Shown here: positions 14,218-18,349 of the stretch, in pieces | Position numbering within the stretch: position 1 is the stretch's first letter | How the letters are laid out: every line of letters begins with the position of its first letter | Virus record (IMG/VR): IMGVR_UViG_3300045988_017993 | Length of the DNA: 35,705 bases | DNA from: a virus | Reading direction: 5' to 3' (one strand) | The notes under the pieces: generated by a model | What the model was told of the DNA's origin: nothing | Database searches by the model: none | Seen by the model: only the letters and a program-made list of their open reading frames with translations | Made by a program: the position numbers and the translations under genes

Positions 14218-14471
14218 TTACTCTAAGTTACTGCAACCAGTAACCGTGAAATCCCTTGATACATAAGGGTTTTGGTTGCTTCGGTTACTCAGTTACTACT
14301 TTTATATATATTTAAAATAAATAAATAAATAAATATATATATATAGAGAGAGAGTCAAAAAATGGGGTAACTGAGTAACCGAAGTAGCTAGAATCCTTGA
14401 TATATAAGGGTTTGTAGTGGTTACTCTTACTAGTAACCGTTACTGTAACCAAGTAACCGAAAGGAGAAAAA
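14218..14471. other. Putative origin of replication (non-coding iteron / AT-rich element)
   Basis: About a dozen GGTTAC/GTAACC copies. A perfect 18-bp inverted repeat (14279..14296 / 14367..14384) flanks an (AAAT)n-(AT)n-(AG)n core. The hairpins CCCTTGATACATAAGGG and CCTTGATATATAAGG are duplicated. The position after the primase gene is as in Sfi21-type phages. Confidence 0.75.
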
Positions 14472-15889: not shown

Positions 15890-16166
15890 AGAGCTAAACG
15901 TAGCCATTGCCTTACTACTGGCATCCCTAATTATCAATGTTGGAACGTTAATCAGTGTAGTCAATAGACCTGTGGAAGCTATCGTGGTACATAAGGTTGA
16001 TAATGCCACTGTAATGCATGGGAAAATCACAGGTAAGCAGATGATAGGGAAGCTCTACACAATCGACTGTGAGGCGTATGGTAAGTTTCTAGTGACTAAA
16101 GAACAATACAACAGTGTTAACGTTGGAGATGAAATTCCAAGCTATTTGAAAGGAAGAGGGCAATGA
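15858..16166 (+). CDS. Small membrane protein (102 aa, one TM)
   Basis: AAAGGAAAG upstream. TM segment VAIALLLASLIINVGTLISVV. Confidence 0.55.
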   Translation: MEHSLRKKTSRELNVAIALLLASLIINVGTLISVVNRPVEAIVVHKVDNATVMHGKITGKQMIGKLYTIDCEAYGKFLVTKEQYNSVNVGDEIPSYLKGRGQ

Positions 16167-16870
16167 AGCGTTTTGAGTATGCAGGACTGACTAAAGAGTT
16201 ACATCAAAGGCTAGTGGTTGAATTTAGCGCATTGAAAGATAAATACCCTAGAAAACTCACTAAATATATAATGGAAACCAAGAAATGCAATAGAATGGAA
16301 GCTAGAAAATATTTTCAAAGGTTTGATAACGTGGTTAAGGAGCGCTCGAAGTTGTCGCCTGTAACGCTGGAAGACATGTGTGAGTATCTTACGAACGGCC
16401 TAGTGAATGACTTACAAGAGTATCTGGCAGAGAACTACTCTGCCAGAAGTGGGTCATGTAAGCCAGATACTAATAAAACTAACGCTGGGCTGACTAAGGA
16501 ACTTTTTCGAGAGCTTCGCAAGGAAATCCAAGAGTTAAGAGCAGCACACCGTAACCGTAACGCAGAATATATTATGGAAGTGAAAGGATGCTCAAAAAAT
16601 CAAGCTCAAACAATCATAACAGCAATTAACACAGTATATACAGAACTTGGAATTTTAACGCCTAGAAAAGTGATACAACTAGAAGGGCTTCTTTCTAGAG
16701 AGCTATTTGGCAAAATAGCTAAATATGTATTTAATAAGTATGAATGGCCTGAAAGCCTAGATAGCGAAGTTGATCGTATCTATTTAGAATATCGCACTCA
16801 AGGTGATTTAGGTCTTGAAAAGGAAAGTGTCAAGCGTGCGCTATATAAAGCGATTTCTATGGGCTTGTAG
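16163..16870 (+). CDS. Hypothetical protein built from two tandem homologous halves (235 aa)
   Basis: GLTKELHQRL...YIMETKKCNRMEA (aa 8..) aligns with GLTKELFREL...YIMEVKGCSKNQA (aa 109..). Start is coupled to the preceding stop by an ATGA overlap. Confidence 0.7.
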   Translation: MKRFEYAGLTKELHQRLVVEFSALKDKYPRKLTKYIMETKKCNRMEARKYFQRFDNVVKERSKLSPVTLEDMCEYLTNGLVNDLQEYLAENYSARSGSCKPDTNKTNAGLTKELFRELRKEIQELRAAHRNRNAEYIMEVKGCSKNQAQTIITAINTVYTELGILTPRKVIQLEGLLSRELFGKIAKYVFNKYEWPESLDSEVDRIYLEYRTQGDLGLEKESVKRALYKAISMGL

Positions 16871-16893
16871 CGGTTCGAATCCGCTATAAGTCA
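16862..16893 (+). ncRNA. tRNA acceptor/T-arm minihelix mimic 1 (not a full tRNA)
   Basis: A 12-bp stem GGCTTGTAGCGG / CCGCTATAAGTC (two G-U pairs) is capped by the canonical T-loop TTCGAAT and followed by an unpaired A. The 12 bp equal a 7-bp acceptor stem plus a 5-bp T stem. It overlaps the stop codon of the upstream ORF. Confidence 0.6.
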
Positions 16894-16962
16894 TTAATTA
16901 CATTAAGTTTGGAGGTGATAACAGCGTAACTGTCGCTATAATTCAAATTCTTTATTCTTGTA

Positions 16963-16993
16963 GCTTGTGAGGGTTCGAATCCCTCGCTAAGCA
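16963..16993 (+). ncRNA. tRNA acceptor/T-arm minihelix mimic 2
   Basis: GCTTGTGAGGG / CCCTCGC(T)AAGC forms 11 bp with a 1-nt bulge, has the same TTCGAAT loop, and is followed by an unpaired A. It shares the 5' motif CTTGTAGC with copy 1. Confidence 0.55.
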
Positions 16994-17046
16994 GTTAGTC
17001 TGTCGTGACTAGGTAATTTTTCGACAAAACGTCAAGCTGACAGACC

Positions 17047-17075
17047 TTGACATAAAAATCCAGTAAATTTATAGA
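17047..17075 (+). promoter_or_regulatory. Promoter (TTGACA, 17-nt spacer, TATAGA) of the late-regulator gene
   Basis: Hexamers at 17047..17052 and 17070..17075. A leader of about 220 nt precedes ATG 17300. Confidence 0.6.
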
Positions 17076-17299
17076 AAAGAGGAAACCAATACATACTTTT
17101 TTTACTCTAGTCTTGCATTGCTGGTAGCAGACTGGAATTTAATCTAAAGGAGGTGGTACAAGACTCAAGAACAAACGCTATTGTCTTTTCATGAAACCTC
17201 TTAATGTTTGTTTCTTGGTTAAAAAACAAAAAAAGACCGACACAATTGCCGGCACTTTATGAAAGTTAACACTACTATTATATCAGAGAGGTTAGTATA

Positions 17300-17716
17300 A
17301 TGCTATTGCCGGAAATTGATGAGAAAGCAACAATCAAACGTTGCAAACGCAAACTTCGAGAATATCCACGCTGGCGAGAGATTGCACACGATAGCGCTGA
17401 ACAGAAAATAACGCAAGAGTTTACGTTTATGCCCCGTGGCACAGGTGGAGTAAATAAGCCAGTTGAAAACATTGCAATTAGGCGAGTTGATGCACTTAAT
17501 GAGTTGGAAGCTATAGAGCAGGCCGTCAGTGGTCTATATCGTCCAGATTATCGTAGGATACTGATAGAAAAATATCTAGAGTTTCCACCCAAACCCAACT
17601 GGCAGATAGCTCAATCAATCGGCTTTGAACGCACTGCATTCCAAGAGCTTTTAAACAACTCTATCCTAGCTTTCGCAGAATTGTATCGTGATGGTCGGTT
17701 AATTGTGGAGCGTTGA
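17300..17716 (+). CDS. ArpU-family late transcriptional regulator (138 aa)
   Basis: N-terminus LPEIDEKATIKRCKRKLREYPRW and C-terminal RRILIEKYL...IAQSIGFERTAF (region-4-like HTH). The gene sits immediately upstream of terS. Confidence 0.75.
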   Translation: MLLPEIDEKATIKRCKRKLREYPRWREIAHDSAEQKITQEFTFMPRGTGGVNKPVENIAIRRVDALNELEAIEQAVSGLYRPDYRRILIEKYLEFPPKPNWQIAQSIGFERTAFQELLNNSILAFAELYRDGRLIVER

Positions 17717-17798
17717 AAAAATGGTATTTTAGCGGAATTTTAACGATCTCTATTAACTGTTTTAAGTGGTATTATTATATTATCGAAGAAGAAAGAAA

Positions 17799-17828
17799 AG
17801 ACGGCTCATTTGTGGGTTGTCTTTTTTT
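17799..17828 (+). terminator. Intrinsic terminator in the leader of the packaging/late operon
   Basis: A 7-bp stem AGACGGC / GTTGTCT (two G-U pairs), a 10-nt loop and a T7 run. It is preceded by an A-rich tract. Confidence 0.6.
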
Positions 17829-17854
17829 GATTAAGTAATGAAGGAGGTGGACAT

Positions 17855-18349
17855 ATTGGGCTAAATCAACGACAGAAAATATTTGCGGATGAATACTTGA
17901 TTTCTGGCATAGCTTACAATGCGGCTCTTAAAGCTGGATATTCTGAAAATTACTCTAAAACTAGAGCTCATAAATTGTTAGAAAATGACAGAATCAAGGC
18001 TTATATCGAAGAACGACTGAAAGATCTTGAAAAGAAGAAAATAGCAAAACAAGACGAAGTTATGCAAGTCTTCACTTCGATTTTACGTCAAGAACTCATG
18101 GAAGAAGTCGTAGAGCTGAACGCCGCTACAGGTCAGTTTGTTAAAACTAAGAAGCCTCCGTCAATCTCCGAAGTCATCAAGGCAGGAAGCGAACTCATGA
18201 AACGCTACCCAACTGAAAAACAAGCTGAGAAGATGCAACTCGAGATCGACAAACTCAAGGCCCAAGTCGGTGGCGATGAGGGTCAAGATGAGAAAATCGC
18301 TGGTTTCCTAAACCTCATCAAAGGAGCTGTAAGCGATGGACTTGAGTAA
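17855..18349 (+). CDS. terS: Terminase small subunit (Terminase_2-like); proposed non-canonical ATT start
   Basis: The frame is open from 17831. The conserved N-terminus GLNQRQKIFADEYLISG lies upstream of the first canonical start (TTG 17897). ATT 17855 lies 5 nt after AAGGAGGTG (17841..17849). Confidence 0.7.
   Translation: MGLNQRQKIFADEYLISGIAYNAALKAGYSENYSKTRAHKLLENDRIKAYIEERLKDLEKKKIAKQDEVMQVFTSILRQELMEEVVELNAATGQFVKTKKPPSISEVIKAGSELMKRYPTEKQAEKMQLEIDKLKAQVGGDEGQDEKIAGFLNLIKGAVSDGLE

What the first reader, a model, noticed from the sequence alone, without database searches (positions are those of the whole stretch)
16862..16993. Two tandem tRNA acceptor/T-arm minihelix mimics at the end of the early operon
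Copy 1 (16862..16893) folds as a 12-bp helix, GGCUUGUAGCGG / CCGCUAUAAGUC, containing two G-U pairs. It is closed by G-C and capped by the invariant tRNA T-loop UUCGAAU, followed by an unpaired A. This is exactly the geometry of a 7-bp acceptor stem stacked on a 5-bp T stem with a discriminator base.

Copy 2 lies about 100 nt downstream at 16963..16993. It has the T arm GAGGG-UUCGAAU-CCCUC extended to 11 bp with one bulge, again followed by A. Both copies share the 5' motif CTTGTAGC.

Neither copy has a D arm, an anticodon arm or a matching distal 5' acceptor strand, so they are not tRNA genes or simple 3' halves.

Minihelices are minimal substrates for RNase P, tRNase Z, the CCA-adding enzyme, and some aminoacyl-tRNA synthetases and acceptor-end-modifying toxins. 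Possible roles:
- tRNA-punctuation-like processing or stabilisation of the early mRNA 3' end
- decoys for tRNA acceptor-targeting defence enzymes (nucleotidyltransferase- or acetyltransferase-type toxins)
- recombination remnants of a tRNA-targeting element

I am not aware of this being described for this phage group.
Basis: seen in the sequence. Interest (0 to 1): 0.75.

Follow-up and report, generated by a model that had tools for sequence, protein, structure and literature searches.

The report
Conserved tRNA top-half mimics in phage mRNA
Dairy and oral Streptococcus phages carry, at the end of one early gene, a conserved RNA hairpin that copies the acceptor/T-arm half of a tRNA, probably to let the host's tRNA-trimming enzymes cut the phage message just ahead of the gene that switches on late genes.

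Summary
Both hairpins are at the stated coordinates, fold strongly, and carry the only two GGTTCGAATCC motifs in the window. No tRNA gene or Rfam family is called.

The window is a Streptococcus thermophilus phage (Brussowvirus, 99% identical to CHPC869).

The element belongs to a family found in more than 300 Streptococcus phage genomes. It sits where the DUF1340 gene ends, with the stop codon inside or at the edge of the helix, and upstream of the late-activator gene.
- It is always 12 bp + 7-nt T-loop (TTCGANT) + 12 nt, followed by an unpaired purine and then UU.
- 7 of 12 pairs show compensatory changes.
- G·U pairs and model scores fit the sense strand only.
- A variant first seen in an S. 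salivarius phage keeps a 7-bp acceptor stem and T-arm, separated by a 9-nt linker. The linker's GG covaries with T-loop C56, as in a D-loop/T-loop contact.

The tandem arrangement is a lineage-specific duplication. Copy 1 is truncated in phage 2972 and others; the copy next to a conserved pseudoknot-like box is nearly always present.

Best reading (inferred, not shown): a tRNA-like processing signal for RNase P and RNase Z, like plant mitochondrial t-elements. An attP relic and a terminator are rejected. A decoy role is untested.

The parts
16163..16870 (+). DUF1340 gene (235 aa). Its last three codons and the TAG stop (16868-16870) form the 5' strand of minihelix copy 1.
   Evidence: ORF list. 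Pfam PF07067 at E = 1e-141. PHROG 1814, function unknown. AF2 model is all-alpha with no PDB match.
16862..16893 (+). Minihelix copy 1: 12-bp acceptor/T-stem stack, T-loop TTCGAAT (16874-16880), unpaired A16893, then UUA.
   Evidence: Fold dG -19.2 kcal/mol, z = -7.25. Model R1 scores 47.8 bits on + and 16.9 bits on -. Covariation in alignment A1.
16894..16961 (+). Spacer between the copies, read as a shortened duplicate module. It holds the anti-SD-complementary GGAGGTGAT (16911-16919), a sigma-70-like GTGATA-16-TATAAT (16915-16942), and the duplicated ORF tail CTTGTAGC (16957-16964).
   Evidence: Sequence. Promoter scan gives 10 of 12 matches, but the region as a whole is not enriched. The spacer is present, absent or longer in relatives.
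16962..16993 (+). Minihelix copy 2 (the distal copy): T arm GAGGG/TTCGAAT/CCCTC, 11 bp in all with T16988 bulged, unpaired A16993.
   Evidence: Fold dG -16.8 kcal/mol. Model R1 scores 28.6 bits. This is the copy that sits directly upstream of the conserved box in 73 of 75 distinct contexts.
16994..17051 (+). Trailer GTTA, then a conserved pseudoknot-like box. The invariant GTCTGTC (16998-17004) is complementary to the loop GACAGAC (17039-17045) of a covarying hairpin, GTCAAG (17031-17036) / CTTGAC (17046-17051).
   Evidence: Alignment A2 and RNAalifold: 4 hairpin pairs show 8-10 sequences changed on both sides. More stem variants appear.
17052..17160 (+). Conserved non-coding leader blocks (CCAGTAAAT, TAGAA..GAGGA, CTAGTCTTGCATTGCTGGTAGC) ending in AAAGGAGGTGGT (17146-17157). 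That last block matches a Shine-Dalgarno sequence but has no start codon.
   Evidence: Many invariant columns across 24 phages in alignment A2.
17226..17285 (-). Small leftward unit: an extended -10 box TGATATAAT (17285..17277) followed by an intrinsic terminator (stem 17253..17236, T run to about 17226).
   Evidence: Terminator scan. TGNTATAAT is found in 115 of 117 related loci, and a hairpin plus T run follows it in the 14 distinct variants printed.
17300..17716 (+). ArpU-type late transcriptional activator gene, the downstream neighbour of the whole non-coding module.
   Evidence: PHROG 248, transcriptional activator, E = 2e-44. Annotated as such in relatives.

Best explanation
The two hairpins are sense-strand RNA structures that mimic the 'top half' of a tRNA: a 7-bp acceptor stem stacked on the 5-bp T stem, a canonical T-loop, and an unpaired discriminator purine. 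They belong to a family conserved at the junction between the DUF1340 gene and the late-activator gene in S. thermophilus and related Streptococcus phages.

Most likely mechanism, all steps inferred:
1. When no ribosome is terminating on the DUF1340 stop codon, the helix folds within the early polycistronic transcript.
2. The host tRNA-maturation enzymes recognise it. RNase P cuts at the 5' edge, 16861/16862 for copy 1. This is at or upstream of the stop codon, so the upstream message loses its stop codon and has no protecting 3' structure.
3. RNase Z cuts after the unpaired purine, at 16893/16894 and 16993/16994.
4. The CCA-adding enzyme may then cap the released ~32-nt minihelix.

The result would be a fixed cut that uncouples the early replication-module message from the structured leader of the late-activator gene. 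That leader contains a pseudoknot-like box and a Shine-Dalgarno-like block that could stall 5'-to-3' decay. The cut would give the activator mRNA its own 5' end and stability.

Shown here: the structure, its strand, its conservation, and its tRNA-like details. Inferred: the enzymes and the consequence.
For: Structure and strand
- 24 distinct 32-nt versions are 91.3% paired, against 38-49% when the partners are slid. 7 of 12 pairs have compensatory changes, and 0 of 500 shuffles reach the observed covariation score.
- The model scores 42-49 bits on the + strand and at most 18 bits on the - strand. The window has no other hit.

tRNA likeness
- The T-loop is TTCGANT. G53-C61 is invariant, and only position 59 varies freely.
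- The total length is always 12 + 7 + 12.
- The next base is a purine followed by TT in about 80% of 111 distinct contexts, which include some 12 unrelated T-arm matches.
- In 30 distinct linker-type versions the 7-bp acceptor stem is 100% paired. The second G of the linker tracks T-loop position 56 (G-C 27, A-U 2, G-U 1), like the G19-C56 elbow pair of tRNA.

Conservation
- The module is in 334 phage records, all Streptococcus, across four genera.
- 73 of 75 distinct contexts upstream of the conserved box carry the hairpin.

Host side
- All Streptococcaceae tRNA genes lack an encoded CCA. They depend on RNase Z, which cuts right after the discriminator, and the one mapped trailer begins with U (PMC8549757).
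- B. subtilis RNase Z is hindered by long 5' extensions, so RNase P acts first (PMC1874595).

Precedent
- Plant mitochondrial t-elements were found with the same GGTTCRANYCC motif. They are cut by RNase P and RNase Z, and they give reading-frame-internal (stop-less) nad6 and ccmC 3' ends (PMC1920247).

Transcription
- The 2972 study places the ArpU-family activator in the early gene cluster (PMC11551762). In the 2972 record that gene lies just downstream of the intact minihelix.
Against: - No RNA ends, cleavage or CCA addition have been observed for any member.
- Cleavage of anticodon-less minihelices by Gram-positive RNase Z and type B RNase P is assumed from other systems.
- Many versions have one or two mismatches at acceptor pairs 5 and 6, and copy 2 of this window has a bulge.
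- Copy 1 is deleted in several viable phages, so at least one copy is non-essential.
- A stop-less DUF1340 message looks costly unless it is itself regulatory.
- The strong sequence invariance of the neighbouring box could equally reflect protein binding.
- Host tRNA sequences and trailers were not compared directly.
Confidence: 0.48

Rival explanations
1. The minihelix is one domain of a larger cis-regulatory leader or non-coding RNA, together with the pseudoknot-like box and the conserved blocks up to the activator gene. It would work by binding a protein, the ribosome or another RNA. The T-loop would serve as a general tertiary-structure module and no tRNA-enzyme cleavage would occur.
For: The hairpin and the box are physically coupled in 73 of 75 contexts. 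The roughly 200-nt stretch downstream is more conserved than the flanking genes and has a covarying hairpin. A conserved small leftward promoter-terminator unit lies next to it, so the region is a regulatory hub.
Against: This reading does not explain the exact 12-bp length, the unpaired purine followed by UU, or the D-loop-like GG covariation. All three are specific to tRNA mimicry. Copy 1 of this window has no box behind it.
Confidence: 0.2
2. Once made, the minihelix acts in trans as a decoy or sponge for something that binds the tRNA acceptor end or elbow. Candidates are an acceptor-targeting toxin of a defence system, the CCA-adding enzyme, or a tRNA-modifying enzyme.
For: The tRNA top-half mimicry is faithful, including an elbow-like contact in the linker type. 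The elements often occur in two copies. They lie in the early-expressed part of the genome.
Against: - There is no anticodon arm, which is the target of most known tRNA-cleaving defences.
- No aminoacylation identity set is conserved. The first pair varies among G-C, G·U and A-U, and there is no G3·U70.
- The element has no strong promoter of its own.
- Its fixed position on the DUF1340 stop codon and next to the box argues for a cis role.
- Copy number varies freely, and copy 1 is lost in phage 2972.
Confidence: 0.12
3. The elements are DNA-level leftovers with no present RNA function: a decayed phage tRNA gene, an attP-like copy of a host tRNA 3' end, or a recombination hotspot.
For: The indel pattern shows recombination between the copies, giving one-copy, two-copy and truncated forms. 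The T-arm sequence must derive from a tRNA originally.
Against: - Compensatory changes and G·U pairs maintain a sense-strand helix across at least 50 distinct versions.
- The 5' strand is adjacent to the T arm, which no tRNA fragment provides.
- In the temperate relative TP-J34 the integrase lies about 12 kb away, and the stretch of the record next to it shows no T-arm.
- The implied 5' acceptor strands start with A or are A/U-rich, which is unusual for bacterial tRNAs (own knowledge).
Confidence: 0.05
4. The hairpins are transcription terminators or attenuators that end the early operon.
For: They are strong hairpins placed right after an ORF.
Against: No U tract follows either hairpin (AUUAAUUAC and AGUUAGUC). 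The terminator scan finds none on the + strand in 16000-18000. A canonical T-loop is unnecessary for termination.
Confidence: 0.03

Closest known systems
Plant mitochondrial t-elements (tRNA-like processing signals in mRNAs; Forner et al. 2007, PMC1920247)
   Same: - Non-tRNA elements recognisable by the GGTTCRANYCC T-arm motif and an acceptor-like stem.
- They are embedded next to or inside ORF ends.
- RNase P and RNase Z cut at their borders.
- For nad6 and ccmC the RNase P cut leaves mRNAs that end inside the reading frame. That is what the geometry predicts here for DUF1340.
   Different: Those elements are in organelles, not phages. Most fold into imperfect cloverleaves of about 74 nt, whereas these are bare 31-nt top halves, or top halves with a 9-nt linker. 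Processing has been mapped there and not here.
tRNA-like domain of tmRNA
   Same: Acceptor stem plus T arm without an anticodon arm, with a reduced D-loop analogue contacting the T-loop. The only relaxed Rfam hit is the T arm of a tmRNA model.
   Different: In tmRNA the two acceptor strands are the 5' and 3' ends of a roughly 350-nt RNA that has a tag ORF, G3·U70 and an encoded or added CCA. None of these is present here. ARAGORN calls no tmRNA.
mascRNA / MEN-beta tRNA-like elements of mammalian long non-coding RNAs (own knowledge)
   Same: A tRNA-like fold inside a long transcript. RNase P makes the 3' end of the upstream RNA. RNase Z and the CCA-adding enzyme release a small tRNA-like RNA.
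   Different: Those are eukaryotic full cloverleaves, and the upstream RNA is protected by a triple helix. No comparable protecting structure is seen upstream of 16862.
RNase P substrates of coliphages (P1/P7 C4 RNA precursor, phi80 M3 RNA) and RNase P cuts in E. coli operon mRNAs (own knowledge)
   Same: Phage or operon transcripts shaped by a tRNA enzyme acting on an acceptor-stem-like helix.
   Different: Those substrates lack a canonical T-loop and are in Gram-negative systems. There is no sequence or positional relation to this element.
Bacillus phage SP82 early-RNA processing with a polypurine 5' stabiliser, and the STAB-SD element (own knowledge)
   Same: An early phage polycistronic RNA is cut endonucleolytically, and a Shine-Dalgarno-like block without a start codon stabilises the downstream piece. 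Such blocks are present here at 16911-16919 and 17146-17157.
   Different: The cut in SP82 is made by RNase III at a long duplex, not at a tRNA mimic. The stabiliser role here is only an inference.

Membership tests
tRNA gene (Rfam RF00005 / ARAGORN) | Cloverleaf with D arm and anticodon arm between the acceptor 5' strand and the T arm | tested here: not met
   ARAGORN finds 0 genes in the window and in 60 related loci. There is no Rfam tRNA hit even at E up to 10. The 5' strand abuts the T stem directly.
tRNA gene (Rfam RF00005 / ARAGORN) | Canonical T arm: 5-bp stem closed by G53-C61, with loop T54 T55 C56 R57 A58 N59 Y60 | tested here: met
   GG-TTCGANT-CC is invariant or nearly so in A1 and A3. 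Loop census.
tmRNA | Tag-peptide reading frame, pseudoknots between the distant 5' and 3' acceptor strands, and G3·U70 | tested here: not met
   ARAGORN calls no tmRNA. Pair 3-70 is C-G in 20 of 24 versions, U-G in 3 and unpaired in 1. The two strands are adjacent.
tRNA-like processing signal (t-element type) | T-arm consensus GGTTCRANYCC outside a tRNA gene | tested here: met
   The same search motif was used to find t-elements.
tRNA-like processing signal (t-element type) | Acceptor-like stem coaxial with the T stem (12 bp), an unpaired discriminator, and no encoded CCA | tested here: met
   91-95% of cells are paired, with covariation. Purine then TT follows in about 80% of 111 contexts, and none has an encoded CCA at that position.
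tRNA-like processing signal (t-element type) | RNA 5' and 3' ends coincide with the element borders; cleavage by RNase P or RNase Z | not testable with these tools
   No read-level RNA data were available. The supplement of the 2972 RNA-seq paper is not held.
Intrinsic (rho-independent) terminator | G+C-rich hairpin followed directly by a U tract on the transcribed strand | tested here: not met
   The scan finds none on the + strand in 16000-18000. The tails are AUUAAUU and AGUUAGU.
attP core / host tRNA 3'-end fragment | Lies next to the integrase and is identical to the 3' end of a host tRNA gene | tested here: not met
   In TP-J34 the integrase is at 1-1080 and the elements at about 13.2 kb, and the record end adjoining int shows no T-arm. 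This window has no minus-strand lysogeny module. Identity to host tRNAs was not tested directly.
Any Rfam 15 family | Score at or above the family's gathering threshold | tested here: not met
   0 matches in the whole window. Only sub-threshold noise in 16700-17400 and in the S. salivarius phage version.

The most novel reading that the evidence does not exclude
The family is a phage-encoded tRNA-elbow mimic with a dedicated biological role beyond simple punctuation. One version: RNase P cleavage at or in the DUF1340 stop codon deliberately makes a stop-less message, so that DUF1340 output is throttled through ribosome rescue and linked to the release of the late-activator mRNA. This would act as a translation-sensing timer for the early-to-late switch. 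Another version: the released CCA-tailed minihelix acts in trans on a host tRNA-binding factor or defence system. The linker-type GG-C56 contact would then be the first minimal acceptor/T-arm/D-loop mimic described in a phage mRNA.
Probability: 0.2. Interest if true: 0.85.

Novelty: new variant of a known kind. Interest (0 to 1): 0.68.

Why it matters
S. thermophilus phages are the main cause of dairy fermentation failure. They are also the model system for CRISPR biology, especially phages 2972, DT1 and 858. How they time late gene expression is only partly understood. One RNA-seq study of 2972 detected just two primary promoters and invoked post-transcriptional processing (PMC11551762).

This is a conserved tRNA-like cut signal, unannotated in every record inspected, just upstream of the late-activator leader. 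It gives a concrete candidate for that processing, and it can be tested with RNA-seq data already generated and with CRISPR-based phage editing.

More generally, it would extend tRNA punctuation of mRNAs to phages of Gram-positive bacteria. So far this is known from mitochondria and a few long non-coding RNAs. It would also supply a natural minimal tRNA top-half / elbow mimic, with and without a D-loop surrogate.

Several GenBank records are linearised through the element: 2972 starts in its T-loop and Sfi19 ends in it. This may help explain why it has gone unnoticed.

Tried and rejected
- **Genome scan.** The genome-contig scan with GGTTCGANTCC-N13-15-GTCTGTC was too loose. No prophage distribution across species and no host tRNA set was obtained.
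- **Host tRNA comparison.** A direct comparison with S. thermophilus tRNAs and their trailers could not be done. Sixty related loci contained no tRNA gene.
- **Rfam.** Nothing usable at gathering or relaxed thresholds.
- **Literature.** I searched for a tRNA-like element in these phages, for the TP-J34 stem-loops, and for transcription maps. Nothing describes the element. The TP-J34 record annotates six stem_loop features in the intergenic region, but they start about 40 nt downstream of copy 1, and the paper does not mention stem-loops. The Sfi19 transcription map and the Pellegrini 2003 RNase Z paper are not held. The supplement of the 2972 RNA-seq paper is not held.
- **DUF1340 as a tRNA or RNA enzyme.** Pfam and PHROGs give unknown function. 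There is no PDB sequence match. The AF2 model (pLDDT 78.6) is all-alpha with an internal repeat, and Foldseek against the PDB gives nothing below E = 0.7. No link was found.
- **Terminator reading.** Rejected: no U tract.
- **attP relic.** Rejected.
- **Promoter between the copies.** A sigma-70 promoter at 16915-16942 remains possible. However, the -35 spacing is not conserved in relatives, and the region is not enriched for promoter-like sites.
Full report
**What the window is.** All long ORFs run on the + strand. The region 16400-17400 is 99% identical to Streptococcus thermophilus phages CHPC869, CHPC951 and CHPC1083 (Brussowvirus). It matches 288 phage records, all from Streptococcus. The finding lies between a 235-aa ORF (16163-16870, Pfam DUF1340, E = 1e-141) and an ArpU-type late transcriptional activator gene (17300-17716).

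**Checking the observation.**
- Copy 1 (16862-16893) is GGCTTGTAGCGG / TTCGAAT / CCGCTATAAGTC + A. It forms a perfect 12-bp helix with two G·U pairs: dG -19.2 kcal/mol, z = -7.25.
- Copy 2 (16963-16993) forms 11 bp with one bulged T: dG -16.8 kcal/mol, z = -4.23.
- GGTTCGAATCC occurs only at these two places in 35.7 kb.
- ARAGORN finds no tRNA or tmRNA, and Rfam finds nothing at gathering thresholds.
- Both helices survive in the fold of a 341-nt context.

**Conservation and covariation.** I fetched 35 related loci through the DUF1340 protein. The hairpin is present at the ORF end in nearly all of them, in many different sequences.
- Twenty-four distinct 32-nt versions align without gaps.
- 91.3% of cells are paired, against 38-49% when the 3' partners are slid by 1-3 columns.
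- 7 of 12 pairs show changes on both sides.
- No shuffle out of 500 reaches the observed covariation score.
- The weak spots are pairs 5 and 6 of the acceptor-like part.
- G·U pairs are frequent, so the helix exists only on the + strand.
- A covariance model built from the alignment scores 42-49 bits on + and at most 18 bits on -. It finds nothing else in the window.
- The loop is TTCGANT, with G53-C61 invariant and only position 59 freely variable. This is the tRNA T-loop rule.
- After the 12-nt 3' strand comes a purine and then TT in about 80% of 111 distinct contexts, a count that includes about a dozen unrelated T-arm matches.

**The tandem arrangement is secondary.**
- Many phages have a single copy. 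There the ORF ends ATGGGCTTGTGA, and the TGA lies in the helix.
- Others have two copies separated by 70-180 nt.
- Several, including phage 2972, Sfi11 and P0095, have lost the 3' half of copy 1 through a 17-nt deletion (GGTTCGAA|AATTAC) while keeping the distal copy.
- The CTTGTAGC ahead of copy 2 is the duplicated tail of the ORF.
- So copy 1 is dispensable when the distal copy is there.
- In this window's lineage the distal copy carries a one-base insertion and scores lower, at 28.6 bits.

**What lies downstream.** The distal copy is always followed by R-TTA-GTCTGTC and a conserved non-coding stretch of about 200 nt.
- Within it, a hairpin GTCAAG[CTGACAGAC]CTTGAC (17031-17051) covaries. Variants include GTATCG/CGATAC, GCATCG/CGATGC, GTCGAG/CTCGAC and GGACAAG/CTTGTCC.
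- The hairpin's invariant loop is complementary to the invariant GTCTGTC at 16998-17004, which suggests an H-type pseudoknot.
- The stretch ends in AAAGGAGGTGGT (17146-17157), a full Shine-Dalgarno match with no start codon. A similar GGAGGTGAT follows copy 1 (16911-16919).
- The same module precedes both ArpU-type and LtrB-type activator genes.
- blastn finds it in 334 phage records, all Streptococcus. They span Brussowvirus, Moineauvirus, Vansinderenvirus and Piorkowskivirus, plus S. salivarius phage YMC-2011.
- Scanning IMG/VR for the box alone gave about 90 more true instances. Pooled with the earlier loci, 73 of 75 distinct upstream contexts carry a canonical T-loop hairpin. The two exceptions have 6-nt loops.

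**A more tRNA-like variant.** In YMC-2011 and many metagenomic relatives, the 5' acceptor strand (TAGCTAG or TAGCCAG, beginning with the ORF's stop codon) is separated from the T stem by a 9-nt linker, AAYGGTWTA. The 3' side stays continuous.
- In 30 distinct versions the 7-bp acceptor stem is 100% paired. It includes a U-A to C-G switch.
- The second G of the linker tracks T-loop position 56: G-C in 27, A-U in 2 (two different backgrounds), and G-U in 1.
- This is the pattern expected for a G19-C56-like elbow contact, although it rests on few events.
- ARAGORN calls none of these elements as tRNAs.

**How it most likely works.** The anatomy matches the minimal substrate of the tRNA end-processing enzymes: a 12-bp acceptor/T stack, a T-loop, an unpaired purine, and a CCA-less U-rich trailer.
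- The host fits. All Streptococcaceae tRNA genes lack an encoded CCA and depend on RNase Z, which cuts just after the discriminator. The one mapped trailer starts with U (PMC8549757).
- B. subtilis RNase Z works poorly on long 5' extensions, so RNase P is thought to cut first (PMC1874595).
- The 2972 study places the ArpU-family activator in the early gene cluster. It found only two primary promoters and invoked processing (PMC11551762). In the 2972 record that activator gene lies just downstream of the intact minihelix.
- I therefore propose tRNA-style punctuation. RNase P would cut at the 5' edge. In all three registers seen this lies at or upstream of the DUF1340 stop codon (ATG|GGC.., T|AGCGTGC.., T|AGCTAG..). 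RNase Z would cut after the purine, freeing the structured activator leader.
- Plant mitochondrial t-elements are the closest analogue. They share the search motif and the enzymes, and nad6 and ccmC mRNAs end inside the reading frame (PMC1920247).
- None of the enzymatic steps has been shown for this element.

**Rivals.**
- A larger cis-regulatory RNA in which the T-loop hairpin is only a structural module remains plausible.
- A trans-acting decoy is possible but has no specific support. There is no anticodon arm, no conserved identity set, and no promoter of its own.
- A terminator is excluded, because no U tract follows.
- An attP or host-tRNA relic is excluded by the covariation. It is also excluded by the distance from the integrase in the temperate relative TP-J34.

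**Side checks.** DUF1340 gives no functional clue. The AF2 model has pLDDT 78.6, is all-alpha with an internal repeat, and has no PDB match. The literature held here does not describe the element. The TP-J34 record annotates six stem_loop features in the intergenic region, starting about 40 nt downstream of copy 1, and the paper does not mention stem-loops.

**Verdict.** This is a real, strand-specific, family-wide tRNA top-half mimic that I found undescribed in the literature and databases available. Its kind is known: tRNA-like processing signals. Its setting is new: a phage of a Gram-positive host, overlapping a stop codon, coupled to a pseudoknot leader of the late activator, with a linker variant that mimics the elbow. 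Function is inferred. Interest 0.68.

Noticed in passing
window 17226-17285, minus strand: An extended -10 box on the minus strand (TGATATAAT, 17285..17277) is followed about 25-45 nt later by a minus-strand hairpin plus T run (17253..17226). TGNTATAAT is found in 115 of 117 related loci, with N variable, upstream of both ArpU-type and LtrB-type genes. The hairpin and T run follow it in the 14 distinct variants printed. It would make a leftward RNA of roughly 40-55 nt, antisense to the leader just before the activator's ribosome-binding site.
   Followed up: partly
window 16998-17051: A pseudoknot-like box. The invariant GTCTGTC is complementary to the invariant loop of a hairpin whose stem covaries in at least five versions. 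It follows the distal minihelix in nearly every relative. No Rfam match.
   Followed up: partly
window 16911-16919 and 17146-17157: Full Shine-Dalgarno matches (GGAGGTGAT, AAAGGAGGTGGT) with no usable start codon, one after each minihelix. They are conserved as GGNGGTGRT. They could be ribosome-binding 5' stabilisers, as in STAB-SD and phage SP82.
   Followed up: no
L039 (phage 2972, NC_007019) nt 1-107; L009 (Sfi19) end: The 2972 GenBank record begins inside the truncated copy-1 T-loop (GGTTCGAAAATT...), and the Sfi19 record ends inside the hairpin. The linearisation points cut through the element, so record-by-record annotation cannot see it whole.
   Followed up: yes
window 16163-16867 (DUF1340 protein): The protein contains an internal duplication: residues ~7-58 and ~107-159 share the pattern AGLT.EL....YIME.K.C...QA. 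The AF2 model is all-helical, with faint, non-significant resemblance to helix-turn-helix and ECF-sigma folds.
   Followed up: partly
L187, L207, L228, L255, L191 (related loci): Some relatives carry two complete minihelix-plus-box modules in tandem. The second module uses a third acceptor type (GACTGG ... CCAGTC with a 10-nt linker). Two second-module copies have a 6-nt loop and may be decaying.
   Followed up: partly
window 14218-14471: A 254-nt non-coding gap lies between the 505-aa primase-like ORF and the 143-aa ORF. From my own recollection, this corresponds to the origin-like element described for phage Sfi21. A 2026 paper (PMC13575424) reports an antisense RNA between ORF37 and ORF38 of phage 2972. 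Whether that is the same gap was not checked.
   Followed up: no
L018 2860-3400: In one metagenomic contig the sequence after the copy-1 module switches to unrelated DNA, with no distal minihelix or box. This may be an assembly chimera or a rearranged phage.
   Followed up: no
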